A stretch of DNA of 37,770 nt from Seison nebaliae (lineage: Eukaryota): assembly GCA_023231475.1 (NCBI GenBank), contig JALJEE010002753.1, positions 1 to 37,770 of the forward strand. The letters are read 5' to 3'. A model generated the notes under the pieces. That model saw only the letters and a list, made by a program, of their open reading frames with translations, was not told the origin of the DNA and made no database searches. The stretch's first letter is position 1, and every line of letters begins with the position of its first letter. Below are positions 1 to 36,941 of this stretch, one piece after another. The position numbers were made by a program, and so were the translations under genes.

Positions 1-64
1 TAATAATCAAATAGTTGAATAATTGGTGAAGTACCATTTAGACTTGTAGTAGAATTAAAACGTC

Positions 65-2670: not shown

Positions 2671-5094
2671 ATGGGAAATCATGAGAAGAATTCCGAGAAT
2701 CGAATCGATACCAAATGGACATGTGACAAGTGTACATATATTAATGAATTCAATAAGAATCTCTGTCGAATTTGTGAGAATGATCGAACAAAACATAAAT
2801 CTCTCGAAAAATCGAATAAAAAGAGCGATTATCATCATCATCAACAACGGAATAATCATCGATCAATTTTTCAACAGAATCTCCAAAATAAAAAATCTCA
2901 TCCCACCACCTCATCCACCCAACAACAACAAGACCAACAAACAACAACAAATAATTTATCGAGTTCGACAAGAAAGAAACTGAATGAAGCGAAATATCGA
3001 CGGAATCGTAGTCGAACAAAAGCTTCGAATATTTTATTGCAAGAACAATGTTTATCACAAATCGAATTAGATAATATTGCAAAAAGATTAAGAAGTAAGA
3101 ATAAATTGTTTGTTGATCATACTTTTCCACCAACCATCCAATCGATAATTGGAAAGGAGAATAGTAGAAATCAATCAGATAATGGACTTCCAACATATCT
3201 TCAAGATCGTATGTCTCAATCGACGAATTCAACATCACTCGTCTGGTTACGTCCTCATGAATTATCATTGGAATCTCTCACATTAATTTATCATTCATGG
3301 AAAGTGTTCCGAGATGATCTCGTACCATCAGATGTAGAACAAGGAATTCTCGGTAATTGTTGGTTCTTATCAGCTTTAGCAGTTCTCGCAGAACGACCAG
3401 ATCTAATAAGAAATATTATGTTAACAAGTGAATATAATAGTTTGGGAGCATATCAAGTCAGATTATGTCTGGATGGAATATGGAAAAGAATTATGATTGA
3501 TGATTTATTACCATGTGATAATGTCACAAGAATTCCATATTATTCAAAACCGTTAAGGAAACAATTATGGGTTCCTCTTATTGAGAAAGCAGCAGCTAAA
3601 GCATTCGGTTCTTATTCAGCGTTGATTGGTGGTTATCTCGTCGACGGTTTAGCAACTTTGACTGGAGCACCTTGTGAATCGATTGCTGTTGTACCAGATA
3701 CAGATTCCGATGTAACATTAACTTCAGATATTATTGATAATCATCTCCAAGTGATTTGGGCGAAGTTATTAAGTGCGAAAGATGCCGGTTTCTTAATGGG
3801 AATTAGTTGTGGTTTTCGTGTCACTCAACAAGTCTATGATGAAGTTGGATTACATTCACGTCACGCTTATAGTATTTTGGATGTTGTTGATATCGATCCG
3901 AAATTAGTTGATCATAATGAGAATGATGGTCCTATACGTTTGGTGCAGGTACGTAATCCATGGGGAAGAACGAAAGATAAATGGAGGGGAAAATGGAATG
4001 CGAAAGATCGAATTTGTTGGACAAGTAAAATGATCAAATTATTAGGAGATCCAAAATTATTAAATTCAGCTATTTTCTGGATATGTCTCGATGATGTATA
4101 TAAATATTTCGATTCAATAATTGTTTGTAAAGCGTATCCGAAATATAAGAAGAATGAAGGATGGCATGAAACGAGAGCAAGTGGTGCAGTTTGGTATCAG
4201 AACTTTTCTTCTAAATGTCATGTCTTTCTTCTTAACGTCTTCGAAACAACTGAAATGGAAATAACTTTATTTCAAAAACATTCTGAATATGAAGATATGT
4301 TGGATGTTGGATTTGTTGTAAATAAATTGGCGAATGAAGATCAATTGAATGAGAGAAGTAGAAATAAACGTCGAATTAATTTCGTCGGTTGTTCAGAAGT
4401 TTCACGAATCGGTGATTGTGTCATGTATTGTGGGAAACAAGTGTCTCATAGTGTCGCTAGTAGTGGCTGGTTCGATCCAGGTCAATATATTATTACTCCT
4501 ATGGCATTTAGTCAAATCATTCCGAATGGAAATAATTCTGGAAAAAAAGTTACATATCCTTTCAACATCGTTATTCATAGTAGTCAATCGATATTTCTTG
4601 ATCATGATCGTTTTCCTTCCACGCATATTGCTGATGCTGTAATTTCTTGTGCTAAACGTTTTGGAACTCCAACTTATCTGAGAGACGAAGCAACTATGTT
4701 TGCATTAATGAGATGTGCTGGTGCCATTCTGGTAACAGAGAATCGTCACAAAAGTCATTTCTTACATGTCCAAACGAATGTTAATGATGATCCTAATCTC
4801 ATTTGTTCTCGTGGTGGTTTGACATGGGTCGATTCCATTCCTCCAAATAGTCGGTTAGTTTTACTTCTCTTTTACTTTTATTTCACTTTTATCATTTCCA
4901 TCTTCAGAATGGTAATGGGCGTCTTCTCCCAAGTCAGTTTCACAGCTGGATATGTCCTACGACATCAATGTCGACATCGATTAGTTAATCGAGCTCAATT
5001 AGGCAGTGAATGGTGTCCGAATTATAATCAAGCAACTAATTCTCCAGGAATTACTAACGCCATTTCTGGTCTACATCTTCCCAGACAAATTTGA
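2671..5094 (+). CDS. CAPN15: Calpain-15 / small optic lobes (SOL)-type calpain, ~789 aa; exons 2671-4853, 4908-5094
   Basis: RanBP2-type zinc finger WTCDKCTYIN...CRICE, CysPc catalytic triad motifs QGILGNCWFLSAL / HAYS / RNPWG, and a C-terminal SOL-homology region (..DSIPP..R..SQ..; GLHLPR). An in-frame 54-nt GTT..CAG intron explains the Phe-rich insert in the ORF track. Confidence 0.9.
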   Translation: MGNHEKNSENRIDTKWTCDKCTYINEFNKNLCRICENDRTKHKSLEKSNKKSDYHHHQQRNNHRSIFQQNLQNKKSHPTTSSTQQQQDQQTTTNNLSSSTRKKLNEAKYRRNRSRTKASNILLQEQCLSQIELDNIAKRLRSKNKLFVDHTFPPTIQSIIGKENSRNQSDNGLPTYLQDRMSQSTNSTSLVWLRPHELSLESLTLIYHSWKVFRDDLVPSDVEQGILGNCWFLSALAVLAERPDLIRNIMLTSEYNSLGAYQVRLCLDGIWKRIMIDDLLPCDNVTRIPYYSKPLRKQLWVPLIEKAAAKAFGSYSALIGGYLVDGLATLTGAPCESIAVVPDTDSDVTLTSDIIDNHLQVIWAKLLSAKDAGFLMGISCGFRVTQQVYDEVGLHSRHAYSILDVVDIDPKLVDHNENDGPIRLVQVRNPWGRTKDKWRGKWNAKDRICWTSKMIKLLGDPKLLNSAIFWICLDDVYKYFDSIIVCKAYPKYKKNEGWHETRASGAVWYQNFSSKCHVFLLNVFETTEMEITLFQKHSEYEDMLDVGFVVNKLANEDQLNERSRNKRRINFVGCSEVSRIGDCVMYCGKQVSHSVASSGWFDPGQYIITPMAFSQIIPNGNNSGKKVTYPFNIVIHSSQSIFLDHDRFPSTHIADAVISCAKRFGTPTYLRDEATMFALMRCAGAILVTENRHKSHFLHVQTNVNDDPNLICSRGGLTWVDSIPPNSRLVLLLFYFYFTFIISIFRMVMGVFSQVSFTAGYVLRHQCRHRLVNRAQLGSEWCPNYNQATNSPGITNAISGLHLPRQI

Positions 5095-5200
5095 TATGGG
5101 AAGAATTCTTCTTTTTAACAATCTCATTTTTATCAAATTCATCAGTGATAATTTAATTCTTTATTTAAAATAATAAATTTTATTATATCGAAAACCAAAT

Positions 5201-5350
5201 TAGAAAACTTCAAATATTTTCATGTAGAAAAATTATCAAATTATTATGTAGAAAACTTTAAATATTTCCTTTTGGAAAATTGAAATATTTTTATGTAGAA
5301 AACTTGAAATAATTTCGTGTGGAAAATTAACAAATTTTTATTGGGAAAAT
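5201..5350. repeat. Degenerate 23-24-bp minisatellite, ~6 units
   Basis: Units begin TAGAAAAC/TGGAAAAT at 5201, 5225, 5249, 5273, 5296, 5320; consensus approximately TAGAAAACTTNAAATATTTTNATG. Confidence 0.75.
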
Positions 5351-5897
5351 TGAGAAGAATTAAAGTTTGATTTGAAATAAAAAAGGAAAAATTTTAAATG
5401 AATAGTTCAACAAATGATCTTCCTGAGAGAATGATTAAGATGCCTGAAATCCATAAACTTTTCCTTTCACCTAAAAAAATATTGAGAGAAAGAGTAAAAA
5501 TAAAATTTCCTAACCGACTCGTGCAAATTTCCAGAATAAACCTCTTAAACTCCAAAAAGAAATTGAGAAAAATTTAGAATGAAAGAACTAACCCAGTTGT
5601 ACGTGGCACCAATGTTGGAAATAGATTTTTCACATAAGCACAAGTGCATATCATGAGAATAATGACGGTAATTAAACTTTCGAAATTGAAAATGGCAGAC
5701 TAAATTAAGAAATAAAATCGATAATATTTCCATCAAGAAAAAGACAAAAGAACCATAGTTCTCTCAGAAACCGGTTGGATGACAGGAAATTATAAGAAAA
5801 TTTATTCACAATTAATTTTTTTTCTAAACTAAACTTTCAAATAATCAAATTGAAAATGTTAAGCAATTGAAATATTTTCAACAAATCTTTCTTAATC

Positions 5898-5911
5898 GTT
5901 TCTATAGGAAC
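5898..5911. promoter_or_regulatory. X-box (RFX/DAF-19 binding site)
   Basis: GTTTCT-AT-AGGAAC is a full match to the GTHNYY-AT-RRNAAC consensus, ~35 nt upstream of the ATG of the ciliary gene BBS9. Confidence 0.8.
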
Positions 5912-5945
5912 CAGATCAATAATCTTTTTATTCATCTCCTGATAG

Positions 5946-8900
5946 ATGACTTTGTTTAATCTGATAAATTTGTGGTCAGTCAAGGCTGACGTCGATTCTG
6001 ATGTCATATCACACGCAGTCTTACATCAGAATGAACGTCATTGTTTTTTAGCCACAGGTTTCATGAATGGAAAAATTTGTATTCATTCACCCGAATCAAT
6101 CAAAGATGATGAAACAGAACAATCGTCTGTTAATGATTTATTGGTAGAGAAGGACTTGAGTAATGATGGACCGTTACTCGATTTATCCTTTGGCAATTTT
6201 ACTGGAGATGTAAACGATATTTCGTTGGCTGTACTTCAATCGAAAATATTGACAATTTTCAGATTAATAAAATCTGAATTAGCAAATGGAATATTTTGTC
6301 TAGAAGCGGAACATACGAACCAATTCAAACATGATGCTTATAATTTCTGTACAGGATATTTTGGTCGGAATAAATGTTCCATTTCCATTATCATTTAATT
6401 AATAATTTTATATTGTGTTTGACAGATAAAGAATTTATTTGTGTTCAATCGATTGATGGATTACTGTTGATATATTGTCAGGGAACTTTCCACTTTCAAA
6501 ATTTCCTACCCAAATTCTTGATTCCTGGACCAATCACTTATCTACCATCCAATGATATGATTGCCACTATTTCCACCGCTTACTGTGTAGAGGCGTATCG
6601 GTTTTCATAAATTCATTTAACTTTTTCTTCAAATTTCTCGAAAAGATATCAAGATTTAGCGATGTGTACGTCAGAGGAAGGTAAAGATGAAGGTAAAGTT
6701 CTACAGGTTAAAAACCATATTTTCTTATTTACAAATTTAAAAAATTTTTAATAGTGTAACTGGTCATTGAATATAGGAGAATATGCGATAGATTTATATT
6801 CAATTGATATGGAGAATTCGAAACATCAAATTTTAATTTTAGGTTTCCTACTTCCAAATTACTTTGACCGTCATTTTATGTTGAAGGCGAACAAAATTTG
6901 TTTATGGCGAATGATGAAGGTAAATTGTTGTGGACAGTTCAACCCGAATCAAATTATCTTCACGCAATTCCTTATCGATCAAGTTTTTGATTTTTCAAAT
7001 CCTCTCCCTTTATCCATTATCTTCGTCAAGTTAATCATAAACAAGTCAATACTATTGCCATCACCGATAACAATTTACTTCATATTTTAGAAGATAAATT
7101 TGTGAAATGGTCATGCAAATTGGATGAGAACGTCTCCTCCGTCAATATCGTTCAATCGAAGTTCGATGGAAAATGGAAATTTCTTTTTTAATTTTTAAAT
7201 TTTAGAAATTTGAAGAATGTTGTTGTGACATTCAGTCCAAATGGATCAATTCATTGCTCATATTTGGGTACGGATCCTCAATTACAAACGAAAGCAGTCA
7301 AATATCGAGAAGTTGATATGTCGAATCATATAGAAAAACTGAAAACTCTCCAAAAGAAAATCAACGCAGAAAAAAATAATCCTGGTTAATTTCTTTTCTT
7401 TTTCCTTATTTAATTCTTTTAATATTTCCGTTCCATAGATAATTCAAGTTTATTATTAAACAGGAAAGATCAACAGAAGAAAATTAACTTGAAAGTAAAA
7501 CTTGAACCCGAATTGAAATCGGTTAGGAAAAGATTTATGAAAAAAGGTGAAAATTGAGAAATTTTATAGATTGACGCAACAATTTTTAGTAATTTGCCAA
7601 ACGAAATTTTATCTGTCGCCAGATATGCGACGTTACATGTTAATTTTACTTCCACTTTTTTTCCCTTAAATTTATTTGAATAGATCGAATGTCAAACAAA
7701 CGAAGTCTTATCGAAAATGATGTTGTCTATCGACGTCAAATCACCTTTAAAATGTAATCGTAGTCAAATCGTCTCTGATAGTAATTCTCCAACAATCGAA
7801 GAAGAAGTAAAGATATATTTAAATGAAATGGACATTCTCTGTAACGATTTGACAGCAACAGTCGTCGTTTCCATAACAACTACAAACGGTGGAGTATTGA
7901 GAAGAAAAGAAGAAGTGGCATTACCAATGAGATTGGTTATGGTACCATTTGCGTCGAATTTGAATTTAGAAGAAAAATTAACATTTAAATCAAATCAATC
8001 AATTCCATTACATAAACTCTTTATTGGTTTCTCCATTATTTAAAAAGGAAAATTTTAATTTTCTTTTAAGATTATCAATCATCTTCTTCTTCAACGGATA
8101 ATCGTGCAATCGGTTTCTCTTATTATAATATACCGAATTCCTCCGTAACTCTAGCATATAATCAAGGTTCGATAATTTTTTTCGATTCATCATTTAATTA
8201 TCGTTTTAGATCTCTTAAGAATCTGTAGTAATCATTTGGCATATTGTTCGTTGCCATATAAGGAATTATTGAAACGATTATCATCGAAATCATCAAATCA
8301 TGATGATTTTATGAAAGAGAATCCATTTGAATTAATTGGAACTTTTCCGTTTGCTTCGATGGAGAAATGGTTGAAGAGTTATTTGAATGATGAGAATGAA
8401 TTGAGGAGATTGGAGGAAGAGTTGAATAAAGCATCAATTCAATTTCGTGCTTTACAATTAATTACTAATAATAAAATGGAACACGCAATGAATAATAATA
8501 TGGAGAATTATGAAGGAACTTATGGAACAGCATATAATATTGTTGTGGAATGTTGTGAGAATTGTGAGAAAGTGCAAAAATTACTTTATTCAAATTATCT
8601 ACATTTAATTTCAATTTTTAATTTATTCATATCATTAATCCTTTCTGATAAACGAAATCGAATGCCGATTGAAGAGAAGAAACAATTATATCGTCAAACT
8701 CATTTGGGATGGTGGGAGAATGTGGAGGATATGAATATCGATGTTCTCATTGAAAGTATCCTCTACTATTCACTTCATGGTAGTAATAATAATAAGATAA
8801 CGAATATCTTAAAAAACAAAGTCCCAATATCGAACGATTCGTTAGAAGTTCGAAAGAAACGTCTCATGAATATCATTTCAATTATTTGGAATGCTAATGC

Positions 8901-9081
8901 TGAAGGACATATCGATGGAATAAAGAAAATTATCGAGTCGTTAACTGATCGAACTGATCGACCGATGTCGACCACTGTGGGAAAACATAATATTTCCGCT
9001 ACATCCGATTTCTCGAATTTACCACAAACCAGACCAACCACCGCTTTCGATGAGTCGATTTCATCACAAGTATTATTTTAA
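5946..9081 (+). CDS. BBS9: BBSome subunit BBS9/PTHB1, ~873 aa; exons 5946-6375, 6426-6600, 6646-6706, 6755-6842, 6887-6982, 7031-7160, 7206-7384, 7439-7521, 7570-7638, 7684-8026, 8071-8166, 8210-9081
   Basis: The spliced frame is open (2622 nt). PTHB1 motifs: MTLF..W start, ICVQSIDG, FLIPGPITY, WSLNIGE, LGEQN, HCSYLGTDP, QFRALQ, GWWE. It has 11 introns of 43-54 nt, all GTT..AG. Confidence 0.92.
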
Positions 9082-9264
9082 AATTTATTTTATAATTCCG
9101 AAAAAAAAAACGATCGTTTATGAAATTTCTCATTTTTCTTCTCCTCATTGTTTGTGAAATAAATTGAATCGGTTATTTTATGGTTTTTTTATTATTATCA
9201 TCTTTTTCTTATTTGCAATAATTTTTACACAAATTTCTCTTTCCATAATTATTTCAATAATTTA

Positions 9265-10560
9265 TCATGATGTCTGTAATCTAGACGACACTTCTCCATC
9301 TTTCGGTATTCTCTCACAACCGGTGTCAATACGAGGTGCGGCAGCTGTTCTAAACTTCAGTTTCTCATTATGAATCTTCAAAAAAGAAATAATTCATCAA
9401 AATTGAGTAAACGTTAATTAACTCTGATATTTCCGCCTTGTTGCTGATGTTTAATATTAGCCAATGAATTAATTTTTGATTCGGTTTTCCATGCAAGTTT
9501 CTCATTCATAATCTATTGAAGAAATGAAAGTTGTTAAAGAGAATTGGGAAATTTAAACTCGAATATTTCCTCCTTTCGGTGTATGTGTCTTGTTCGCTAA
9601 TGATTGGATCTTGGAATTAGCTTTCCATTGAAGTTTATCATTCAAAATCTGCATTAATGTTTGGATGATAATAGGAATTAATATCAATTTTAAATGTGTT
9701 TCTACTAAACTTGGACATTACCACCTTTAGCTTGATATGTCGAATTTTCTAAAGAGCCACATTTAGCTTTCACTTGTTTATAATCGTATTTGGGAGCATT
9801 GAATATTTGAACATTGCCACCTTTTGGAACATGTCTCACTTTCAATTTATCTAAACGGAAAGAAAAAATTAGAGTGTTTTCGAAATTTTTTTTGGATAAT
9901 TTTTTAAAAATTTTTTAAAAAGTTTTCTATGAAATTTTCTTTTTAATATTTTTTTGAATTTTTATCTAGTTTCTTTGAAGAAGTTTTAAGAAGGAATAAA
10001 AGTCGTTTTTAGTGTGGAAATGAATTTGAACATTTTATACCACCCGCTTTCGGTGGTTGGGTATTGGATGAAGTTGATTGCGATTGACGGCTCATAAATG
10101 ATTCAGACGAACAAACACTTCCTCTACTACTGAATGTTGTGGAATTTGCATTATTCTTCTCACTTTTTTCTATGCTACTCCTCGTTAATTTAGTTTGGTT
10201 GCCATTAGAATCATTCGGTTTCACTCGAAGTGTATCATAGTTTCCGTCATCGAAATTATCATACTCGATATTCATCTTCTTTAATTGTTCGCAACATTCA
10301 TCGACGTATTGTTGACAACGGCCGATGGATTGCATGTCTTCTCTCGAGTTCGCTTTCGAAATGTTTGTTGAACTAATTTGACTTTTTGAAGGAATGCGCG
10401 ATTGCTGCACACTATTTGTCGATTTGGCGGAATTCGAGAAATTAGTAGGTCGTCTTATGTGAGAAGATGTTACGGAGATGTTGCGTGATTTGGAACGTAT
10501 TCCTCCATTGAAGCGAGGTATCATCGACGAACCTGGGGCTGGCCCTGTTTGTGTAGCCAT
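9265..10560 (-). CDS. Tau/MAP2/MAP4-family microtubule-associated protein, ~319 aa; exons 10560-10032, 9850-9711, 9648-9559, 9512-9423, 9375-9265
   Basis: Translated repeats HVPKGGNVQI, VKAKCGSLEN..QAKGGNVQI, SKIQSLAN.THTPKGGNIRI, SKINSLANIKHQQQGGNIRI, followed by KLKFRTAAAPRIDTG (compare tau KLTFRENAKAKTDHG). Basic Ser-rich N-terminal region; spliced frame open (960 nt). The repeat exons are absent from the ORF track. Confidence 0.88.
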
Positions 10561-10974
10561 AACTGAAGTCTATTCCCTAACCGAATGGCACACGAATGGT
10601 TGAACGACTAAGAGATCTGGGGAAATGGTTTTTTTTCGTAGGGAATATCAATAAAAATGGAAAATTTTAAATGAGAAAAATATGGAAATTCTTTTCGGGA
10701 AGTTCCATGAAACGGTAGAATGTTGCGTGTAGATAAGGAGGTGGAAAGTTAATGAATAATGATTCGGTCGAAATGCAAATTGAATTAAAAGAAGAAAAGT
10801 TCTCCTTATTAAATTATCTAATAAATTCTGTTCGAGATTAAATGTGTTTAAGTGAATAATGGATAAGCATTGATTATTGTAACAAGAGACATAGGTAGGT
10901 CATCGACGTGATATGTCAGTTATTCAATTATGATATAATATTATCATCTAATTAATATCGAAACGAGGGAGATG

Positions 10975-10977
<3 letters not shown>

Positions 10978-11005
<28 letters not shown>
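10978..11005. repeat. (AG)14 microsatellite
   Basis: Perfect AG dinucleotide run, ~420 bp upstream of the tau-like ATG. Confidence 0.9.
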
Positions 11006-11009
<4 letters not shown>

Positions 11010-14000
11010 AGTTTCGATGAGAAAGATAATATTTAATAAAAGAAGAATGTCGACATATCAGAATTTTCATTCTCTTCTCGTGATTGAAGGAATCGGACGT
11101 TTTCCTTCTTGAAAAAAATAATAACTTCTTAAATCATTTACCATTTATCATCGCATGATTTTAGAATGTGAAGATGATTACCTAATATTATTATTATTAT
11201 TGTTGTTGTTGTTTGTCTTGTTATTGTTGATGGTGTGAAATGAGTGATATTATTAAGAGAATTGAACGTCAACAATGAGTGTGTTAGGAGGAGGGGGAGG
11301 ATGGGAGAAGAATAGATTCATCATCATAACATATCTCATCAATCGATCTTTCCAATCACTTCATTCGTTTGAACAACCTACTTCTTTTAACAATTCACTT
11401 CGAATGAATAGAAAGATAATTAATCTACGATTCATCCATCCAATATCCATAGTCACTTATCCGTTACACATAGACATACATCAATCTCATCAATTGATCG
11501 TTCCACATTTCTCTAAAGAAGAAGAAGATACAATATCCTATTGATTCTGTCCATTCCAAATATCATCTCAATTACTTTTCGAGTCTAAATCATATTTTCA
11601 TACATCAAATTGATTACTATCCCATCTGGTCCGGTTTCCATACCCCTCACTTTTATCATAACCGCTTCTTCTGCAAAGATTATCGACGAATAGAAATATC
11701 TCTTACTTTTCCATCAACTATTCCATCGACATACGTCAAATGATTGTGGTTAGGAGACTAACGAAATGCGATAGAAAAAAATAATCGAAGAAAACGTTAA
11801 AACTGTTTTCTGTCGATAAGGAAATATGAATTCTTATCGTTAAACATAAATATCATCAATCTCCACTATCTTCTAACCAACGAACAACAACGACAACAAC
11901 AAGAAAAACATTATGTAAATATTCACTTGTCCGTTATCAGATCAGTGATAGTTCCAGTAATTATTGATGAATTTTGTTTGAATAAAAAAAAGGAAGAACG
12001 TTCAAAAATTGAATTCAATGGAAATAAAACATTCCCCAATTGGAGTTAAGGTCGTCATTGTCTGATATTATTGTTGACATTAAACTCTCACAGTCTTGTC
12101 AGTCTTTATATCAGTTCGACGGAAAAAGAAAGAAGGAAGTTTGACTGGCGGTTTTTTGTATTGGAAAAATATGATGGAGTCTTATCGATTATTATTCTTT
12201 CATATTCGATTTTATGGAAATGAAATTTTATGGAACGTAAAAATTTTGACGTTTTCTATTAGGGGTGGCACTCCTTATCAACTGGAATGATATATGTTAA
12301 TATAATTCATTTCACTCACTGGAACTAAATATTCGTTCGCTTTTATCTAATTTGTATCTTTCATTTCTTTTCTCAGATGATTGTGAACATTCCAATTACG
12401 AGAGTTCACCTTTCAACTTTATTTCATAACAAATCGAAAGGAAGAAAGATATGTTCTTTGACTGTGCATCGAAATAAATAGATGTAGTCTGATTAATTCA
12501 AACGGAAATTTCTATTTGAAAGGCGAAGGTTAAGAAACGGTTTGACTCTAACCACAGAGCACACTTCCATTTCTTCCTCCAACCTATTCTGAATAATCGA
12601 CGTCGAAATCAATTCGACATTCCTTAAGATGTTTGTACGTGGGAACTGATGGTTCAATTTCCATCAACTCTCATTCAAAGGAAATGTAAGAGGGAATGTA
12701 AAGTCGAGTTGTACATCGTAAGGAATAAAAATTGTTGAAGTATCATTTCCGATAATATTATTCAAATGTCATTTTCTACTAATAGAAGAATCGTTTTTTT
12801 GTTGTGTTGCCGGTGAATGGGAACAATTAATTCTCAGTAAATAGAGTGAAATGTTATTTCTTTCTTTTCGAACAATACTTATAATTTTCAAAGAATATAT
12901 CAAGAGAAAAAACAACAATTACTTCTATTACATAATCGTTCCGTGAATTTCAAGTCACTATTCCTAATGTCAGTTAATCTAATAACTCAAATAGATAATA
13001 ATAAAAAATTAGGAAATATATTGATTTTTTAAAATATCCGAAATAATTAATTAAATTAATTACTTTTTTTATTTTGATAGAATTTATTATCTGATGAAAA
13101 TTTATTTGTTTGGGAATCACATTAGAAATAAGGTGTTATCTCTAAAATGATTGATTTTGATGGATGGATTACGTTTTATATATTGTTGATTTGAAGGAGA
13201 ATTTGTTTTATATTTATTCTCACTTTCTCCGATATGAAGAAAAAGTAGTAAAAGGAGAAAAGGAATAGTGACATTTGCACGAAAGAAATAAAAGAAGAAA
13301 TAAGCGAATCTCACATAATATGTAGAATTGGACGATGTATATTGGACCATATGCTGCGCTCTTCTCCACTGCAACGAATTAGTGGAAGAGGAGCTCTTGT
13401 CGACTTGATCTACTGGAGGGAATAGCAGCTCCTGCACGTGTACTCCCAAAATAATTCTCTTCTCCTTCCCCCTCTTCGAACAGAGAAGAAACCTGATATT
13501 TACATTTACGATAGAGATAAACATTTTGATTGAACTACTAAAAATATCGGATGAACATAGAGAAAATATTTTGGTGTTCTTCTTGTTGTTGTTGTTGTTG
13601 TTGTTAATGGTGGGAGGAATATAGTCTAGTAAAATAGAGTAGAAGAGGAATTGTCTTTAACATAAAGAAAGATTTTGTTGATGACTCGATCGAATGAATA
13701 GAAGAAGAGATAAAAGACTCTATTCTTTTAGGACGAGAATACATCGAGACTTAATCATACGAATTGGATAATGTTGATGAAAACAACTGCATTATAACTT
13801 CTCTTCAAATGCTTCAATATTGATTGTCGCATATGATACAGAAACGACGAGGAATATACATAAAAATATGAGGAATTTATAATATTCTTTTCGTATTCGA
13901 ACTGTAAATAAATAACTTTTTCTTTGCAATCCTTCCCCATACAAATTCCTCAAACAGTTCATTCTTTTCTTTCGCTCTATTCATTGATATCCTGATATTC

Positions 14001-14260
14001 AATCAAAATATCACGATTATTTTATTCGGCAAATTGGTCGGAATTAGTAGATGGTGGGTAAGGTTGTCGGTCGGAAATAGGTTTCTACTCTTACAAATGG
14101 AGTAATCGCTATCTCATTTACAAAATAAATAAAGTTTCAGAAGAGAATTCAAGGAAACGCAAAATCGTTATTTGGTAATTGGATGGATGTCTTCCCGATT
14201 CCATGTGGAGTTCATGATCGCAACTTTCAACAAATCATTCCGTAATTTTAATAATTTAAC

Positions 14261-14984
14261 CGAAAAACGCAGCAGATGGAGAAAAGAGTCGGTTTAATTT
14301 GGTTCTTTCTGAAAAGCTTCGTATAATATCTGGAAATTTTCCGTTTTACATTTATTCGTCAAATTAATTTATAAGTTTTCTTTGTCAGTGGGGATATGTA
14401 TATCCGTCGAAGAGATTTCCTCATGATTAATTAAAAGAAATGACATGATTGTACTAACATTCATAATGTTTATCCGAGAGAATTAACGGACCAGTATATG
14501 GTACGAAGACTTGAGATGCGGTAGATGAGATATAGCGATCTGGTCCTTCGCTTCTTGATCGAGTAACTTCAAAATTTCCATTCGACTTTGGTCCGCTCGT
14601 CGGTTTCGATCTGTTTCTGTTCGTAAAAGAGTTAGATGACGGTGATGGTTTATTATATGAATGGTTTGAAAATTTATTTTTCGATGACGAGTTGTTTGAC
14701 ATCTGTCGTGATATTGGTGGTAATTCTGACTTTTTCGGTTCTATCAAACGTTCAGGACTCTTATTATTCTCGACGTTATTCTTATCTCTATTCTCATTCA
14801 TATCTCTATTCTCATTCAAATCTTCGTTATAATATCTATGATGATCATTATGATCATGATTCTCAATTGGAATTGAATCTTCATTATCATCATTGCTCTG
14901 AATGCCATCATCATATGGAGCTTTCTTCAACGAACGATCTTCTCCAAATGAACCGGATCCATATTGCGAATCGTTTTCCATCAT
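14261..14984 (-). CDS. Putative upstream coding exons (14984-14459, 14329-14261) encoding an acidic/Asn/Ser-rich disordered region; probable alternative N-terminus of the tau-like gene
   Basis: A 175-codon ORF with protein-like composition ends at a GTTAGT donor (phase 1). It is followed by an open 69-nt CAG..GTT exon, again ending in phase 1, which is compatible with the 9850 repeat exon. The linkage is inferred. Confidence 0.55.
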
Positions 14985-15334
14985 TATTCCCGTTTCCACT
15001 CTAACTCTATTAAGTTATGTTTGTAAAAAAATTGTAGTTGGACTGTTGAAATTTCAATTAAAAATTCTTCTTGTTTGATCGTTGATACATAGGATTGGGT
15101 GAAATACAAATCAATTTTTTCTCTTCGAGAAATCTCCAGAAAAATTATTTTCCTTCAAATAAATTATCCGTCTAATCACTTGTTCGTGAGATGAATCAAC
15201 TTTTACATAACACACATAAAACTTTATTAAAACTTAAACAAAGTCGAATTATTAGAGGAAAATTAAATTTGTATTAGCAGAAATCCGAGTGAGATAGATC
15301 GAATGGGAAGTTTTATAGACGTGTGCTCAATATG

Positions 15335-15347: not shown

Positions 15348-18300
15348 GAATATTTGGATTAAATCTATGTACATAAAATGGAGTTTTCTCTAACTTTTTC
15401 CAATGAAACTTGTCGGAATAAGAGAATTCAATTTGGACAATATTTTTTTAATTGAACTCCTCGTACATTTCGAACACTCCTCAAATTCGACGTTTTCCGA
15501 AAGTTTTTTAAAGAAATATTTTTGGATAAGTTAAAACCTTTTCATTACTTTTTCTCTATTATACATTCATCAATGTCAAGAATATTATTTTTCTTCTTTC
15601 TAAGAGAGACTATATCAAAATGGTCTTGTAAGAACCGATATGTCGTCAACACGTTCCTTCCACGATCAATTACAATCATTCATTTTTCTCATTTAGTCAG
15701 TCTTCACAATTACTTGTGAATTACTCCAGTACAATTGGCATTCTCTTCTCGTTGTTATCCCGTTGGTTTGTTGTTTTCCATTTGATCGAGGAGAAAAAAG
15801 AGTCGATAATTTCCTGTCAATCAAACAGTGCAAATCATGTAATAAAAATGTTTATTAAAGAGCGATACATGTCAGTCAATTGGTATTAAACAAATAAAAT
15901 TGGTATTTCCTTTTCGGAGAAATTTCTCCTTCTACTTTCGTTTCTTGTGGAATTTTCTGACAAACCTCAAAAATTTTTTGTTTTCATTATTGGTTAGCGC
16001 ATTTAGTAAATGACAATTTATTGGAGCATTGATATGCAACTTCAAGTTCGTTTAATCGAATATCATTTTGATAGGAGACAAGACAAAAAGAGAACCTGCT
16101 TCGTTCCACCATAATTGTTGAATCGATTGAACGAAATAGTTTCGAAGAAAGAAATCGTTTTTTGGAGAGACCTAACAACAGAATAAATGAGGAGAGTTTT
16201 ATGAGAAAGAAATAAAGTAACGATTAGGAATTGGAATCTACTTATAGAAAATATGTTTAGTTCTAATCTCATAAATTTTCAATATCAGAAGCCTTCGGCT
16301 ATTTAATATAGCAACAAAGGGGAATATCCTCTATTCTCCTTCATTCTCCCCCCAAAAAATCAGATAGACAACACAAGAGAATAACTAAAAGAAGTAACAT
16401 TGAGTATTTTAAAATATTTTTTATATGACTACTTACAAATTCGTCATATGAAAGGGCAAATAATTTATTGTCAACTTAAAACATCATCAGCATCGATTGA
16501 AGTTAGAAAGTAAACGAATTCATAAACTCATTGAAACATCTTAAGATTTCTATTTTTACACATGTTATAAATTATTCTGGTAAACAAGATGCTTTTAAAG
16601 AAATGGTTATTTAAATTAATTTCTATCCAACATCAATTTGACTGAAAGAAAAGTAGTTGTTTTGGTGATTTTTATGAATCGATAATGGGAGGTCAATTTG
16701 GAGAATTCTTATAAATAATTAATCAAAGTGCCATAAGTAATTGGTTAAAGTGTTGCATCTGTTGAGATAAATTGGGATGTTGGAATAAATCAATCATTTC
16801 CCCCACATCACAATTCGTTCGGATAATGAACTGATAAATTGGACTAATTTGCACTAGGAAGACAAATTGTTGGAATCGAAGTGTTTTTGAATTAATGCAA
16901 ATGATTATGATAATCGTCTCTTCAACCTTCTCTTCTTTTCTCCAATTCGCTTAATCGAACATTTTGATTGTCGTAGTAATCTGGTGAGGTAGGTCGATGA
17001 GGTTTAAACTTCCATTGTACGGAAGAGCTTGTTAATAACATAATAATATGAGATAAGATTACAAGCATTGAGACGAAAATAATTGTGTGAAGGTTAAGAA
17101 ACTGTATGGTTAGTGGAGATTAATTTGATCATAAAATTTCCATCGAATTCTCGTTGTAAGCAGTTGGAAGGTTGGAGTCCTGACTTATCTTTTATCAATT
17201 CGGAGTCAATTGTCTTTGATATAAATCAATGGGGATGGGGCGGAGAGGAAATGAAATGAAACATTTCTGCCAACTTTTATTAGAACCTTTGGAATTGAAC
17301 GGGATTGTTTATATTCAGATACAGATTCGAATCGAGACTATGTTAGTTCGGAAGTAGAGTTCACTCCTACAATTGGCTTCATCTTAAAATTATTTCAAGA
17401 TTCTCATTTCTCGGCAATTGAAAAGTGTGATTGACTTCGCAGTGTCGATTCGCTATCTATTTACCAACTAGAAGGAAAAATGAAAGAAATGTATACGTAT
17501 ATCATTACGCCGAAGTGAGCAACATTCGAATTGTTGGGAAAGATGATTCTTGTGAATTCTCATTCACTTTTAGTTCCTCGTTGTGGAATAGTTCGAGAAA
17601 TGTTCCCAGTATTAGCCGCCGACAAATTAATATCGATAGAAGACTTTCCGCTAAGTTGTTTATCTATCTAAAGTTCTAATTAAATTAATATTAAATTTAT
17701 TTCATTTACATTCCACCATCATTGATGGATGTATTATTTCCATATATTATGAGAGATATTGTTGTAGGAGAATAAAAGAAGTTATTTTATTAGTAGCACC
17801 ATCTAATGTTGGCTTGTAAGAAGAAGAAGAAGAAAGGAAGAAGAAATTTCTATATTATCGACATAATCGACACCTGTCTCACATTGCTTATCATTCTCTT
17901 CTTTGCAACTTTCTTCATCGTCTTTCTCAAAAACTGGTCTTATATAAATTGCTTATGTATCTGCCAAATTTCTTTTAGGGAGAAGAAATTTAGTTTTCTT
18001 ATTCACTCCTTCCCACCAACTAACGACACTAACAAATGTGATATCGTCCTTAATTCGAGTGTTCTATCACTGAAGAACAACAACAGTAGTCCGTTCGGGA
18101 TTTATGTTAATAAGAATATCTGCTCAAATCTCTTATGTCATTCTCCATAATGTTTTGTTCAATTATTGTTAAATGTAGTCCAAGGTTGATTTTCAGTATT
18201 GACTAATCTTCCTACAAGGTATTAATTTTCTATTTTTTAACCGTCTACCAAGATAATATCCATTTCTTAGACTTCCACTTACATCTTGTTAGACATCTTT

Positions 18301-23600: not shown

Positions 23601-25647
23601 TTTATTCTTCACCTTTTTTTTGAAGGTCGTCAAAGAAACATTCGTTCGAAGAGAAATCGTTTCAACAATCGTTTAGAGAAGTGCTTGTTGTAATGAATGG
23701 AGTGAAGAAGAAGATTCATGAGAAGAATGTGAAGTATCGTCGTGCTAATTTAAATAATCGAATATCGAGATATTTAATGTCGGTGGCTGATCGATCAGAA
23801 GAAACATTAATTGCAACAACTGCCCCGTTTCTATTCATTCAACCTCTATGTTGGGTAGTTGGTCAATTTATTTTGAATCGTGAAGGAAGCATCAATTTTT
23901 TGATGATATGGCTCTATTTCGGATTTGCTTTACTCCTCTGTCTATTTATCACCATTTTCTACACTTTGACAAATGAAGAAGTTGAAAAATTTGTTTTTAA
24001 ATTTAAATTAATTTTTCTTTATGATAAAAATAAATTTAGTTGAAACGAAATATCATGAATGATATTTGTGGGAAATGTTATGATAACCAAATCAGGAAAT
24101 ATCGTCAAGAAAAACTATCGACAATCAGTTAATTTCTTCTATGGGAAATTAATTTTTAAATAATTCCACTTTCTTTTCAGATTCATCGAACGACGCTTTG
24201 TCTAACGAGAATTATATAAAGCGATTAATCCTACATGAGAAATTGTTGAAATATGTTGAGAATGAGAAAGAAACTTTAGGGAATTATGAGACAAAAAGTT
24301 TCGTATCAGAAACTAATGAACAATTGGGAAATGGGAAATTATCATCAATCCAACAAACAAAGAAGAATAATGAAACTAATTCTGTACCAAGTGTATCATC
24401 AATATCGATGTCATCATCATTATCGCCATCCAATGCATCGTCACCTTTTGAAATTAGTATTCATAAACCGGTTTTAGATAAACCGCCAACTATACCCAAA
24501 AATCAACGTCCAACCGAATCATATTCATCGTCAATTCCAAGAAAGAAATATATTCCGACAAATTCAACAATTGACACATTACCCAAAAGAAATTCGTCAC
24601 AAAGAATTATTTCAAATACTAATATACAATATCAAGAAAATCCATCAAAAAATCGTCGTCATTTGAATAGTGAAAACTCTTATTATCATCAAATGTTCAA
24701 TTATAATACACAACAGAAATATGCGTACGAGAAGATGTTAACGAATGATGACAGAAAATATAGCGAGAATGAAATTCCTGAAGTTTGGCCTACGTCCATT
24801 CAATTTAATTCGACTTATTCTATGAACAATTCCATTCCTGATAATGAAGATAATGAGAGGAGAAAGAACTTGTATTCAGATGGTCAAATATTTACGAAAT
24901 CGGATGAAACGGATAATGCCAATTCATTCTCATCATTCTCCAACACATCCGTTTCTTCGGCGTCGTCTTATATTTTGGAACCGTTAGAAAATATATTTCG
25001 ACGATCTGAAAAATGTTCGAACGTAAAAGATTATGGACATTTATCTGATGCATCAGTTGATGAGAATTATTCTATGTACAAATTAGGAAGGACAACCGAA
25101 CTCGCCACGATAGCAGAAGAAAAGAATATCAATATGAATTATTTGTCGAATGAGCAAGAAAATCAGAAATTCCATTCATTAACAATGGCAATGAATCGTG
25201 GAGATGTTATGTCGAACCAGATGCAATATCCATTCTCGAACAATCAATTGGAAGCGAGCTCATTAGTTTAATCTATTTAAAATTTTTAAGTCTTTTAAAT
25301 ATTCTTTTTCTTAGAATTTCTCCGGTAGAAGTACTTGTATGATCGAAGGTTCGGATGAACAAGATATCTTTAATTCCAATATTGACATATATGTGGAAGA
25401 AGCGTCAAATGATGAAACGAAAACTATGACACCGGAATTATATACGTCGAATATGGACAATTATGGGAAAATTAAAAACTCCACCAGGAACTCGTTAATT
25501 GTTCGGAATCGTTTACATGATCAAATCGGATCATCGACGATATCGTCTGGTGGCGAAGGTGAAAGCAACGCTTTCGTCATACGTGCCAGTACATCGACAT
25601 CGAGTGATTATCGTTCTTCATTCAACGAAGGACTCGAAAATAAATAG
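20660..25647 (+). CDS. Divergent secretin/adhesion-class (class B-like) 7TM receptor, ~1470 aa; exons 20660-21130, 21184-21400, 21448(or 21433)-21549, 21599-21723, 21767-22108, 22154-22428, 22472-22571, 22619-23093, 23139-23583(or 23562), 23626-23980, 24040-24127, 24181-25265, 25315-25647
   Basis: Signal peptide; seven hydrophobic segments with class-B hallmarks: TM3 CKTLCIIFYWVNLSCYGWL, TM4 LMGWIYP, ECL2 YCWL, TM5 YLIP, TM7 ending IFYTLTNEE. Long Ser-rich cytoplasmic tail; the spliced frame is open. The 5' exons are less certain. Confidence 0.75.
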
Positions 25648-27984: not shown

Positions 27985-30699
27985 ATGATGGGTGAAATGT
28001 TATGGATTATTCTTTCTCTTCTTCTACCGATCGTTTTATCCGAATATCGACTTGTTTGTTATTACGCCAATTGGGCCCCTTATCGTGATCTACGTCCAAT
28101 CTTATATCCTGATGATATCGATCCTAAATTATGTTCACATATTCATTTCGCCTTTGCTCGCATCAATCCGAAAACGTTAGAGATAACACCAACAGAAAAA
28201 CATGACACTGAATGGTTACCATCGTCAGGACCGGTTAAAATAAACTTTATTCATAATAAATTTATTATTTTTATTTAATTAATTCTAGCCATTATATTTT
28301 CGAATGAGTCGATTAAAAATGACGAATATCGGTTTGAAAACGATATTGAGTATTGGAGGATGGAATGCTAAGTCAACGGGATTTAATGCGGCTTCCAAAA
28401 ATGATAAAAATCGGTTTGGCTTTTTTCTCTAAAAATTGAATTTTAAACATTTTCTAATTAACATTTTGAAGAAGAAAATTTGCTACGCAAGCGATAAAAT
28501 TCTTAAGAATGTGGAATTGGGATGGAATGGATTTGGATTGGGAATATCCTGGTGACTTACAACGTGGCGCTGCTGAATCATCAAAAAATGATTTTCATCA
28601 ATTACTGCGAATAGTTCGAGATGAGATTACTAAAGAATCAATGTTAAGTGGAAGAGAACCGTTGTTGATTAGTTCAGCAGTTTCTGCAAATCCACTCAAA
28701 GTTATTAAAGGATATGATGTCAAAGAATTTTGCCAGTTCAATTTTCTTTAACATATTTCAAAATAATTTAATTTTCAGTTTAATGGATTATGTCAATATT
28801 ATGACATATGACTATCATGGTCCATGGGATAATGTGACAGGATCTAATAGTCCATTATATAATTCGATAAATGAAGAATCGACTTCCATTAAAAAAACAT
28901 CGAATGTTCCAAATATGAGATCTGATGAAAATGTTAGAATATTAAGATCGATGGTTGAAACCAATGAATATGAGAAACATCAAGATAAAACAGCTTATGA
29001 TAAGGATAACAGTTGGAAGAATGCCGTTAGTATATTTTTTATGGAATTTTTTATGCATTTTTTTTTGTAGAATTATAGTATATTTTTTTGGATACGTAAT
29101 GGTTGTCCACCAAAAAAATTGCATTTGGGCATAGCTGCTTATGGGAGAACGTTCATTATGAATATTTCATCGTTAAATTCGAATTTGAAACGGAAAAATT
29201 ATCGTACAGAAATTGTTGATGAATTCAGTGGGAATATTGTGCAGAATAATTCGACAATTAGACCACCACATCAATTTGAACGGAATGCGAAATTATTTTC
29301 AGCCATACCAAATATTGGGACTCCCATAATATCGCCGGGTAAATCGGGAAGATATTCGAAGGAGCCAGGTGTCCTCACTTATTATGAAGTTTGTGAGCAG
29401 TTATATATTAAACGATATAAGAGAGAATGGTTATCCGACGAATTAGTTCCATATGCATATAAGAATGATGAATTTGTATCATTTGATGATTCAGTGTCAG
29501 TATATCATAAAGTGAAATATGTGAAATCATTAGGATTGGGAGGAGTGATGTTATGGACGAGTGATATGGATGATTATTCGGGACGATTCTGTTATGCTGG
29601 TCCATTTCCTATAACGAGAACTATACGAATGTTATTGAATGCGAATAATACGGATACAAATAAAAAGAATTCTTATTCAACCAATACGACGAGAAGAACT
29701 TCCACACCATTTCAAACGACGTCCATATCGATAAAAAAAGAAAAAAGAAAACAAAAGAATTCTCATAATGATCTTCTGCAGTACGAGAAGGCATTCAATG
29801 AAATACATTCAGCTGCTGATTTTATTAAAAATTATCGGAAGAATAACAAAATGACAACCACTCGACCTACAACCACCACCAAATTGACGACGCGAGTAAA
29901 TTTTAAGAAAATTATCAAAATAGAAAATTTTGATAATCGACCAAAAAATAAATTTTATTATAATACAGCAATTAAACAATCAAACAACAACAACAACAAC
30001 AATAATAATAATATAAATATTAATAATCATCAATATTATAATGAACAATTGTTTGAGAAGGATCTAATGAATGATTTAACATCATTTCAATCTGATAATG
30101 ATGATGATGACGACGATTTATTTCCATCTATTAATAATAATAATAATCCATTTCTTTATGGATATCATAATCAATTTGATTGGCAATCACCATTATTAAA
30201 TGGATTATCTAATCGTTATCGAACGACAACAACAACAACAACAACGACGATCATACCATCATCAACAATATCACATTTCCCGAATGCTTATAATCTAATC
30301 GCAGGATTTCTGGAACAACATTCCAATTTTAAGAATGTCAAAGATTCACTCTTACAATATGCGAACATCCTTCATCCGGAATTATCATCCAATATTTCTG
30401 GTCTAACATATCAGAAAGAAAAGAAGAGTAAACGAATCGACTCTAAACTCATATCTACTTATAACAATTACAACAATAACAACAACAATAACTTCTATAC
30501 ATCAGAATTAGTTACGAATTCGACGGATATTCAGCCAATCTTCCTGACTACTAACAGAAATAAAATGTTTAGATTGGTGGGAAAACATAAAGAAAAATTT
30601 TATGATTCACAACATTCCAAAACTAACAAATTATTTTTGAATCCGAAAATTATTATCTTCTTATACTTTTCTCATACCTGCATCCATTTTCTATTCTAG
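27985..30699 (+). CDS. GH18 chitinase, secreted, ~837 aa; exons 27985-28233, 28289-28413, 28472-28735, 28779-29025, 29071-30699
   Basis: Signal peptide, LVCYYANWA, CSHIHFAFA, SIGGWN, intact catalytic DGMDLDWEYP, MTYDYHG, YGRTF, YYEVC, GGVMLW..DMDD, then a low-complexity Thr/Asn tail. Confidence 0.95.
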
Positions 30700-30927
30700 A
30701 ATTTTCTTTTTACTAATTTCTCTCTTTTTCACGTGTACATTGCATAAAAATAAAAATTATTTGTATAATTCAAATGAGACATCTCCAAAAAATCTCCTAA
30801 AACATGAAATAAGTCGATCAAAAGAAAATATTTCCTTGGATATAATTCAAATTTGAGGCACGTGACGTTCTTTGCTTTTTTCATTTCTTCTTACACTATT
30901 GATCTTAAACACGTCTCATTACTCATT

Positions 30928-34584: not shown

Positions 34585-35083
34585 ATTCCATAAAGTTTCC
34601 ATCCGTCCAAAACTATATTCTAAATAATTCATCGAAAAAACTTTTATTTTTCATTTAATTTCCATTTAAGTTTCTTTAACAGATCGTTTTAATTAAATTG
34701 TGTTGTATAAAATTTTGTGAATAATTTTCTCAAAAAGAAAATAAATTTTTGCAATTTCTACAATTTTAACTTTAAACTTTTCAATTTCTTAAAATTAACT
34801 TCAAATTCTTTATTTCCTCAAAAATTAAAATATAATTTAATAAATTTTTAAAAAATTAAAAATCAGAAAAATTTAGATAAAAATTCTCACAAATTTTCAA
34901 AATCAAGATAATCAAAGATTTAAATTGTAAAAATTTTTAAATTTAGTCATTGTAATTAAAAGAAGAATGAGAAATTAGAAGAATCGAATGAGAATGTTTT
35001 TAAAAATGATTTGTAATTGAATCGAGAGCTGATAAAAGATTTTGATTCAAAAATAAAAGAAGGAAATAAATTTTTCTTTTATC

Positions 35084-36941
35084 ATGTTTATTCGTAAGAT
35101 TACATCATCCTTCAACAAACCGTTACTTCGTCAACATCAACAACGAAGATTACTTTCATTATCGTCGTTGTTAAATATAAAATTTTATGATTCGGCAACA
35201 TCGGCAATTGATGATATTCCATCCAATTCTAAATTATTAGTGGGTGGATTCGGTGTTTGTGGAACGCCAAATGAATTATTGAAAGCTTTATCGAGTAAAC
35301 GTCATATAAACAATTTGACGGTTGTATCGAATAATTGTGGTTTACAAGATTTCGGTTTGGGACTTCTACTTAATGAACGACAAGTTCTTTTTTGAAATTT
35401 TGTTAATTTAAAATTTTTCTAAAAATCTCAGATAAAACGAATGATTTCTTCTTATGTTGGAGAGAATGCAGAATTCGAACGTCAATATCTTTCCGGTGAA
35501 TTAGAAGTGGAATTGACACCACAAGTTTATTTGAATCTTTTTCAAAAATTTTTCAATCGAAATTTCCAGGGAACTTTAGCGGAGAAAGTGAGAGCTGGTG
35601 GTGCTGGTATTCCAGCCTTCTTTACAACGACTGGTGTAAATACTTTGATACATGAAGGTGGTGCTCCAATTAAATATAACGACAAAGGAGAAATTACTGT
35701 GAAAAGTAAAAAACGAGAAGCAAGAACATTCAATGGAAGAGAATATATCATGGAGGAATCAATAACAGCTGATTACGCTTTAATTAAAGCATGGAAATGT
35801 GATAAATTGGGAAATTTAGTATTTAGGAAAACAGCAAATAATTTCAATCAAGCAATGAGCAAAGCAGCGAAAACAACGATCGTGGAAGTAGAGGAAATAG
35901 TGGAAGCAGGAGAATTACCATCTGGTGCCATTCATGTTCCATCAGTTTACGTTCAACGCATTTATAAAGGAAAAGATTATTCGAAAAAACGAATCGAAGT
36001 TAAAATTGTTTTAAATTAGAATGAAAATTATGAAATTTCTCTAAAAGAAAGTGAGAAATTTTGATCCGAATGAAAGTTCAATGATTAAAGACAAAAGAAG
36101 AGATAGAATCATTCGTCGAGCAGCATTAGAATTCACTGATGGAATGTATGGTTAATATTTTCACGAGAATTTTAGAAAATTTTAAATTCGAATAGCAAAT
36201 TTGGGAATTGGTCTCCCGACCAAAGTGGCAAATTATATTCCGAAAGATATTTCCGTTTATCTCCAAAGTGAAAATGGAGTTTTGGGTCTGGTTATTTTCC
36301 ATTTTCCATTCGATTAAATGTATATTCTTCAGGATAATTATCCTTTGAAAGGAGAAGAAGATGCTGATCTGATTAATGCAGGAAAAGAAACAGTAACTGT
36401 TCGAGTTGGTGCTGCATATTTTGGAAGTGATGATTCATTTGCAATGATTCGTGGGTTCTCAATTGACTAAAATATCTTTAAATAATTATTCGTATTTAGT
36501 GGCCATATCAATATGACGATGTTGGGAGCGATGCAAGTGAATGAATTTGGTGATCTCTCCAATTGGATGATTCCAGTTTAAATCTAAAAAAAATTTTTCA
36601 AATTTTTCAAATTGTATTCTTAAAAATATTAGAAAATTATGGTGAAAGGAATGGGTGGTGCCATGGATTTAGTAGGTGCTGCTAGTACGAAGGTCATCGT
36701 TGTCATGGAACATACGACGAAGAAAGGTGGAGCGAAGATCTTAAAGAAATGTCAACTTCCATTGACTGGAAAACGAGTTGTAGATAAAATTATTACCGAT
36801 ATGGCAGTTTTTGAAGTAGATAGTACGAATGGTCTCTTATTGACGGAGATCTCTTCAGATACATCAGTCGATGAGGTGAAGAAAGTAACTGAATGCCAAT
36901 TCACAACGTCACCGAACTTAATTCCAATGAAACAAATTTGA
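35084..36941 (+). CDS. OXCT1: Mitochondrial succinyl-CoA:3-oxoacid CoA-transferase (SCOT), ~508 aa; exons 35084-35383, 35432-35524, 35570-35998, 36048-36150, 36196-36290, 36333-36454, 36500-36575, 36633-36941
   Basis: Arg-rich presequence, [47 protein letters not shown], catalytic [30 protein letters not shown]. Seven GTT..AG introns restore the conserved alignment. Confidence 0.97.

What the first reader, a model, noticed from the sequence alone, without database searches (positions are those of the whole stretch)
4854..36632. Window-wide GTT 5' splice sites: an apparently rewired spliceosomal donor code
Seen: 39 introns reconstructed in six unrelated genes on both strands. 38 start GTT, and the remaining one has in-phase GTT (23563) or GTC (23584) options. 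None starts GTA or GTG. SCOT examples fixed by protein conservation: GTTCTT 35384, GTTTAT 35525, GTTAAA 35999, GTTAAT 36151, GTTATT 36291, GTTCTC 36455, GTTTAA 36576. Positions +4 to +6 are variable, and +5G occurs in only about 8 of 39. Canonical-looking AG|GTAAAG sites at 6681 and 6693 are out of phase and apparently skipped in favour of a GTT donor (6707). Established: U2-type donors are normally GURAGU, with +3 purine and +5G read by the U1 5' end and the U6 ACAGAGA box. Inference: this lineage has an altered U1 or U6 sequence, or altered U1-C/LUC7/PRP8-type factors, making +3U obligatory. I do not know whether this has been described for this organism.
Basis: partly seen in the sequence, partly recalled or inferred. 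Interest (0 to 1): 0.93.

Follow-up and report, generated by a model that had tools for sequence, protein, structure and literature searches.

The report
GTT-starting introns in a marine rotifer
In this DNA from the rotifer Seison nebaliae, 44 of 45 mapped introns begin with GTT instead of the GTA or GTG usual in animals, which likely means its splicing machinery reads intron starts with a changed small RNA, though that RNA could not be examined here.

Summary
The window encodes proteins labelled Seison nebaliae (Seisonidea, Syndermata). Of 45 introns I mapped in nine loci, 44 start GTT, one GTC (annotation only) and none GTA/GTG. All 11 SCOT and chitinase junctions ranked by homology alone are GTT too. 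Intron T content (51%) cannot explain it (p about 4e-12). Weak in-register -1G and +5G preferences remain; +4A is lost. A divergent low-depth SCOT copy keeps GTT where the intron body has changed. Shifted register and a shared transposon origin were tested and not supported. The mechanism is inferred. Most likely U1 snRNA has A instead of pseudouridine opposite +3, as in Entamoeba; a U6 change is the main rival. A published BUSCO table lists METTL16 as missing in Seison alone of 25 syndermatans. U1, U6, the rest of the genome and sister taxa could not be read. The closest precedent is Entamoeba GUUUGU; my searches found no report for Seison or another animal.

The parts
2671..5094 (+). Calpain-15/SOL-like gene; one intron 4854-4907, donor GTTAGT (in frame, no stop)
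   Evidence: Pfam Peptidase_C2; the intron is my own reading, no RNA or annotation support
   Evidence: transcript blocks; open frame; Pfam DUF1242
5946..9081 (+). BBS9/PTHB1; 11 introns, all GTT: 6376, 6601, 6707, 6843, 6983, 7161, 7385, 7522, 7639, 8027, 8167
   Evidence: deposited protein P0121 mapped back; alignment to human and bovine BBS9
6681..6698 (+). two unused AAG|GTAAAG sites (6681, 6693) in exon sequence upstream of the used CAG|GTTAAA at 6707
   Evidence: they rank among the best canonical-U1 matches of unused sites
9115..15262 (-). tau/MAP-repeat gene with two alternative first exons; GTT donors 14458 (4608-nt intron), 10031 (181 nt), 9710, 9558, 9422
   Evidence: transcript blocks; both isoforms have open frames; Pfam Tubulin-binding
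13493..13535 (-). 43-nt GTT intron in a short transcript inside the long tau intron
16040..16095 (-). 56-nt GTT intron in a short transcript of unknown gene
20672..25647 (+). 7TM/adhesion-GPCR-like gene; 12 introns, 11 GTT (21131, 21401, 21550, 21724, 22109, 22429, 22572, 23094, 23981, 24128, 25266) and one GTC
   Evidence: deposited protein P0272 mapped back; weak Pfam 7tm_2; no homologues, so annotation only
23563..23625 (+). the one exception: GTC donor 23584 (42-nt intron, used by the deposited model) or in-frame GTT 23563 (63 nt)
   Evidence: unresolved
27988..30699 (+). GH18 chitinase; 4 introns, all GTT: 28234, 28414, 28736, 29026
   Evidence: P0123 mapped back; homology ranking
35084..36941 (+). 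SCOT/OXCT1; 7 introns, all GTT: 35384, 35525, 35999, 36151, 36291, 36455, 36576
   Evidence: P0002 mapped back; homology ranking; first two in transcripts; divergent copy keeps GTT

Best explanation
These are ordinary short spliceosomal introns of Seison nebaliae in which the third base is almost always U, likely because the U1 snRNA arm has changed so that an A, not a pseudouridine, faces position +3. Shown: GT..AG ends, removal from transcripts, 44 of 45 GTT, a residual in-register preference for -1G and +5G, loss of the +4A preference. Inferred: a U1 arm reading ACUAAC pairs only with U at +3, where the normal arm accepts A or G, so the usual purine rule would collapse into a U rule. Inferred: the +3U would then sit opposite an unchanged U6 G44 as a G-U wobble, as in Entamoeba. 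Inferred: loss of METTL16 (no m6A on U6 A43) would explain why +4A is no longer favoured. GTT is needed but not enough, so a narrow length (42-62 nt) and a U-rich body probably finish the definition.
For: Near-fixed +3U at transcript- and homology-fixed junctions. Signals stay in the normal register: -1G, -3C and +5G enriched, +6G not; among GTT sites alone the other canonical positions separate 44 used from 45 unused (AUC 0.78). GTTAGT, the canonical hexamer with only +3 changed, is joint commonest (5 of 45) and starts the 4.6-kb intron. 26 of 71 unused non-GTT sites near introns match canonical U1 at least as well as the median used donor. Precedent: Entamoeba has 96.9-98.5% GUUUGN, a U1 arm changed to AACAAAC and an unchanged U6 ACAGA; Mastigamoeba has a separate matching change. 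METTL16 is scored missing in Seison and found in the other 24 of 25 syndermatan genomes.
Against: No Seison U1 or U6 sequence was seen; none lies in the window and no genome is held. Lineages with GUAUGU donors did not change U1, so a changed donor need not mean a changed arm. Pairing would be short: -1 is G in only 18 of 45 and +6 is at background. METTL16 loss elsewhere goes with +4U, whereas +4U here is below intron background (14 of 45). BUSCO 'missing' is weak: Seison lacks 356 of 954 genes, 76 of them beyond the 280 shared with acanthocephalans. That the ACUAAC arm separates used from unused sites best is circular and is not counted.
Confidence: 0.5

Rival explanations
1. The rule is imposed at the U6 step: U6 position 44 of the ACAGAGA box has become A and pairs Watson-Crick with +3U; this would also destroy the site METTL16 methylates and make the enzyme dispensable.
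For: +3 faces U6 G44 and interacts only weakly with it until activation. Yeast U6-G50A/C alleles were testable in vivo and form an extra pair with +3. +3U holds whatever -1 and +5 are, like +1 and +2. METTL16 is scored missing only in Seison. The METTL16 recognition motif is recalled, not from a call (0 hits).
Against: Entamoeba reached the same +3U with U6 unchanged. The single exception is +3C, which would pair with G44 rather than A44 (annotation only). No U6 sequence seen.
Confidence: 0.2
2. The snRNAs are unchanged and diverged or lost proteins (U1-C, LUC7, PRP28, PRP8, TIA-1-type U-rich binders, SNRNP40) enforce +3U.
For: Yeast prp28 alleles change selectivity most at +3 and +5. Entamoeba U1-C is highly diverged. 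SNRNP40, LSm2, SPF45 and METTL16 are scored missing in Seison.
Against: Known alleles relax rather than reverse the +3 preference: A3U is a poor substrate in yeast with normal snRNAs. PRP8, DIB1, SNU23, KIN17, PRP6 and PRP31 are scored complete. U1-C, U1-70K, LUC7 and SNRNP27 did not appear in the rows I saw.
Confidence: 0.17
3. Donors pair with a normal U1 in the +1 shifted register, so that +3U takes the place of +2U.
For: Known for rare human sites and reported in unchecked notes on other genomes of this scan. -1A goes with +5A (14 of 19 against 7 of 26; nominal p = 0.003).
Against: The shifted register predicts +6G and +7U: 4 of 45 and 22 of 45, both background. G is enriched at +5, the normal register. 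The -1A/+5A link does not survive correction (family-wise p = 0.3). Mean pairing is lower shifted than unshifted.
Confidence: 0.05
4. Base composition, annotation bias or a local effect: GTT merely reflects T-rich introns, or a gene finder trained on GTT, or holds on this contig only.
For: Introns are 51% T; 32 of 45 junctions come from one deposited annotation; only one contig was examined.
Against: 21 of 21 annotation-independent junctions are GTT (p = 8e-7). GTN inside intron bodies is mixed (GTT 11, GTA 8, GTC 7, GTG 2). The annotation chose GTC over an in-frame GTT once. Nine unrelated loci on both strands agree.
Confidence: 0.05
5. The introns descend from one intron-forming transposon whose end happens to be GTT.
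For: Narrow length class (43 of 45 are 42-62 nt).
Against: No pair among 903 intron-body comparisons scores above the shuffled maxima, and there are no consistent junction repeats. The intron at 36576 sits at the position of human OXCT1 intron 13 (c.1248, counted through the alignment with a recalled 520-aa length), so at least this one is ancient.
Confidence: 0.03

Closest known systems
Entamoeba GUUUGU(U) donors with co-evolved U1 AACAAAC (Roy and Bowser, bioRxiv 10.1101/2022.06.08.495308; passages and Introduction read)
   Same: Near-universal U at +3 of U2-type GT-AG introns.
   Different: Entamoeba is intron-poor and fixes +3 to +6 (88-90% GUUUGU). Seison is an intron-rich animal (7 introns in SCOT, 11 in BBS9) that fixes only +3, with +4 and +6 nearly free. 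Its U1 has not been seen.
Saccharomycotina switch from +4A to +4U with loss of METTL16 and SNRNP27K (as reviewed in PMC11732430, section 8 read)
   Same: Loss of the +4A preference together with an apparently missing METTL16.
   Different: There the change is at +4, in intron-poor genomes, with +3A kept; here +3 changes and +4U is not favoured.
Standard U2-type donors, CAG|GURAGU (PMC9311317, PMC11732430; passages read)
   Same: GT..AG ends, -1G and +5G preference in register, conserved intron position.
   Different: +3 purine is replaced by U: 0 of 45 purines.
Bonamia ostreae GTT donors
   Same: Reported 43 of 47 introns starting GTT.
   Different: A protist with 20-24-nt introns and a +4T bias; not tested here and not independent support.
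Shifted-register 5' splice sites (Roca and Krainer 2009, known through the review PMC9311317)
   Same: GTT start.
   Different: Needs +6G/+7U; absent here.

Membership tests
U2-type spliceosomal introns | GT at the start and AG at the end | tested here: met
   45 of 45; placements were chosen among equivalent shifts as GT/GC..AG
U2-type spliceosomal introns | removed from transcripts | tested here: met
   12 junctions in the published transcript mapping; the other 33 have no RNA evidence here
U2-type spliceosomal introns | branch-point motif upstream of the acceptor | tested here: inconclusive
   7 candidate patterns, none above shuffles; weak branch points are normal in intron-rich animals (own knowledge)
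Standard GURAGU donor class | purine at +3 | tested here: not met
   0 of 45
Standard GURAGU donor class | -1G and +5G preference in register | tested here: met
   18 of 45 and 11 of 45, both above background but weak
U12-type introns | RTATCC donor | tested here: not met
   none of 45; the minor-spliceosome protein ZMAT5 is scored missing in Seison
Entamoeba-type transformed donors | near-fixed +3U | tested here: met
   44 of 45
Entamoeba-type transformed donors | fixed +4U, +5G, +6U and low intron density | tested here: not met
   +4U 14, +5G 11, +6U 22 of 45; 45 introns in 38 kb
Entamoeba-type transformed donors | complementary change in the U1 arm | not testable with these tools
   no genome held; no U1 in the window
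Shifted-register donors | consensus displaced by one base (+6G, +7U) | tested here: not met
Introner-derived introns | sequence likeness among introns; junction repeats | tested here: not met

The most novel reading that the evidence does not exclude
An intron-rich animal has turned the invariant GU of the 5' splice site into an invariant GUU across its genome by changing the U6 ACAGAGA box itself (G44 to A), converting ancient introns one by one and losing METTL16 as a consequence.
Probability: 0.18. Interest if true: 0.92.

Novelty: new variant of a known kind. Interest (0 to 1): 0.74.

Why it matters
Homogeneous or transformed donor signals have been tied to intron-poor genomes, and matching snRNA changes are documented for very few lineages. 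An animal with many introns per gene that has swapped the +3 purine for U, at least in part at old intron positions, would show that thousands of sites can co-evolve with the spliceosome without intron loss. It would also separate what U1 and U6 each read at +3, because that position changed while -1 and +5 kept their usual bias. The test is cheap: one search of a public genome for U1 and U6. In practice, gene finders and splice predictors trained on other animals would misplace donors in this lineage.

Tried and rejected
No whole genome was held, so there is no genome-wide logo and no snRNA search. The run search listed no RNA holder; the three runs that covered 18000-37770 are continuous DNA with no intron-sized joints, and a fourth laid nothing; this says nothing on expression. 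A metagenome scan with a SCOT alignment, meant to give control donors from other eukaryotes, returned 80 loci, none with an intron-split SCOT. Rfam at both thresholds and a U1-arm pattern found no snRNA in the window. No donor logos for bdelloids, monogononts or acanthocephalans turned up; Schwartz et al. 2008 was not held under the id I tried; searched passages of PMC3033335 gave no +3 figures. The -1A/+5A link looked real but failed family-wise correction. No branch-point motif rose above shuffles. GTT is not avoided in exons (94 of 243 Val codons), so there is no exonic-depletion signal. The calpain translation was printed in the wrong frame and is not used. Notes of this scan hold nothing on this genome or look-alike stretches. 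The transcript table is cut at 4.0 million characters and gave only 15 rows for this contig; more may lie in the unseen part. Supplements of the bioRxiv preprint were not seen.
Full report
Identity. A SCOT exon matched at 100% a 508-aa protein labelled Seison nebaliae on a 37770-base contig; BBS9 and a 7TM-like protein gave the same label. Seison is a rotifer living on Nebalia crustaceans, close to Acanthocephala (PMC8351084, abstract and sections 6 and 26 read). The window holds calpain-15-like, kish, BBS9, tau/MAP, 7TM-like, chitinase, intronless Dicer-like and SCOT genes and a tRNA-Arg. No whole genome was available.

Mapping the introns. I mapped four deposited proteins back to the DNA, allowing junctions at any dinucleotide: SCOT 7 of 7 GTT, BBS9 11 of 11 including 6707, chitinase 4 of 4, 7TM-like 11 of 12 with GTC at 23584. 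Because an annotation can be biased, I looked for independent evidence. Supplementary file 2 of PMC8351084 lists transcripts mapped to the genome; 15 rows in the held part share the window's coordinates. Their gaps give 12 distinct introns, each with a single GT..AG placement, and all 12 start GTT. Ranking every in-frame, stop-free GT/GC..AG pair near each junction against 16 SCOT and 25 chitinase homologues picked the same GTT donors, 7 of 7 and 4 of 4; the margin is small at 35999 and 29026. The spliced BBS9 aligns to the human protein across its junctions, firmly in the N-terminal domain and weakly in the linker (residues 386-437). The codons holding AAG|GTAAAG 6693 align as exon. With the unverified calpain intron the total is 44 GTT, 1 GTC of 45.

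More than chance. T follows GT at 41.5% of window sites and is 51% of intron bodies. 44 of 45 gives p = 3.9e-12; 21 of 21 annotation-independent junctions give 8e-7, with a lower 95% bound of 87%. GT sites inside intron bodies are mixed. At 80% likeness, DNA runs showed a low-depth SCOT copy 81-89% identical to the window, probably a second Seison lineage, two being described for the species. At 36291 it keeps GTTA while the rest of the 42-nt intron has 17 substitutions and 3 gaps. Its alignments stop at +3 of 35999 (two runs) and at +4 of 36455. That is one direct and two indirect cases in low-depth contigs: modest support.

Anatomy of the signal. Lengths are 42-62 nt for 43 of 45. The donor reads R|GTTHR: -1G 18 of 45 (p = 1e-4), +5G 11 of 45 (p = 1.7e-5), +5 purine 32 of 45, +4 A 17, T 14, C 13, G 1, +6 onwards background. 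Acceptors are TAG 23, CAG 11, AAG 10, GAG 1. No branch-point motif stood out. GTT is necessary but not sufficient: 45 unused GTT lie near the introns and GTT is the commonest Val codon. 26 of 71 unused non-GTT sites match canonical U1 at least as well as the median used donor.

Rivals tested. A shifted U1 register, common in unchecked notes on protists, predicts +6G and is not supported. A -1A/+5A link failed correction. A transposon origin is not supported: intron bodies are unrelated and lack junction repeats. The intron at 36576 falls at human OXCT1 c.1248, intron 13 (PMC6060985 passage; counted through with a recalled protein length). From memory, several other SCOT introns and the kish intron after the start codon also sit at human positions; this was not checked.

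Mechanism. +3 is read twice: by a pseudouridine of the U1 arm (PMC9311317 passages) and by U6 G44 (PMC11732430 and PMC9803359 passages). In yeast with normal snRNAs A3U is a poor donor (PMC3632134 passages), so an snRNA change is likelier than none. Entamoeba shows near-fixed +3U with a changed U1 and an unchanged U6. I therefore favour a U1 arm with A opposite +3 (0.5), then a U6 G44A change (0.2), then protein-only change (0.17). The BUSCO sheet of PMC12256650 (rows read) scores METTL16 missing in Seison and present in the other 24 genomes. LSm2 and SPF45 are also missing in Seison alone and SNRNP40 in Seison and one bdelloid, while PRP8, DIB1, SNU23, KIN17, PRP6, PRP31, SF3B1 and the Sm proteins seen are complete. 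This fits the loss of +4A but does not explain +3U: METTL16 loss in yeasts goes with +4U, which is under-represented here. Seison also misses 356 of 954 such genes, so the absence needs a direct search. U1 proteins, LUC7 and SNRNP27 were not in the rows seen.

What is known. 'Seison' with 'spliceosom' gave 0 papers. 'Seison nebaliae' with 'intron' gave 5; I read passages of 3 and none treats donor sequence; the other 2 I saw as listings only. Searches showed no listing on GTT donors in an animal. Subscription journals, including any paper behind the deposited annotation, were not searched. That GTT is a sizeable minority donor in some AT-rich invertebrates is recalled, not tested, and sister taxa could not be examined.

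Verdict. A real, well-supported and apparently undescribed donor rule on this contig, very probably genome-wide (my estimate 0.9), of the same kind as the Entamoeba case but in an intron-rich animal and confined to +3. The mechanism is unproven but one genome search away.

Noticed in passing
window 5298-5810 (-): A kish/TMEM167-like gene with three transcript-mapped introns lies head to head with BBS9, about 190 bases between start codons.
   Followed up: yes
acceptors of the 45 introns: AAG ends 10 of 45 introns and GAG one (5550, transcript-mapped); the divergent SCOT copy has AAG where the window has CAG at 36330-36332. The -3 position of the acceptor looks relaxed.
   Followed up: partly
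window 9115-15262 (-): Tau/MAP-repeat gene with two alternative first exons spliced to one acceptor; its 4.6-kb intron holds further transcribed pieces (11199-11611, 12120-12383, 13347-13602).
   Followed up: partly
window 30808-34584 (+): Intronless Dicer-like frame of about 1220 residues in which Pfam finds only the two RNase III domains, no helicase or PAZ.
   Followed up: no
window 37004-37477: Unspliced transcribed stretch behind SCOT, richer in G+C than its flanks, with no convincing frame, no Rfam match and a weak fold (z = -1.7).
   Followed up: partly
BUSCO sheet of PMC12256650: SPF45/RBM17 and METTL16 are scored missing only in Seison among 25 syndermatans; SPF45 is recalled as a factor for short introns, which makes its absence odd in a genome of 45-nt introns.
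   Followed up: no
window 64-138 (+): tRNA-Arg(TCG) gene.
   Followed up: yes
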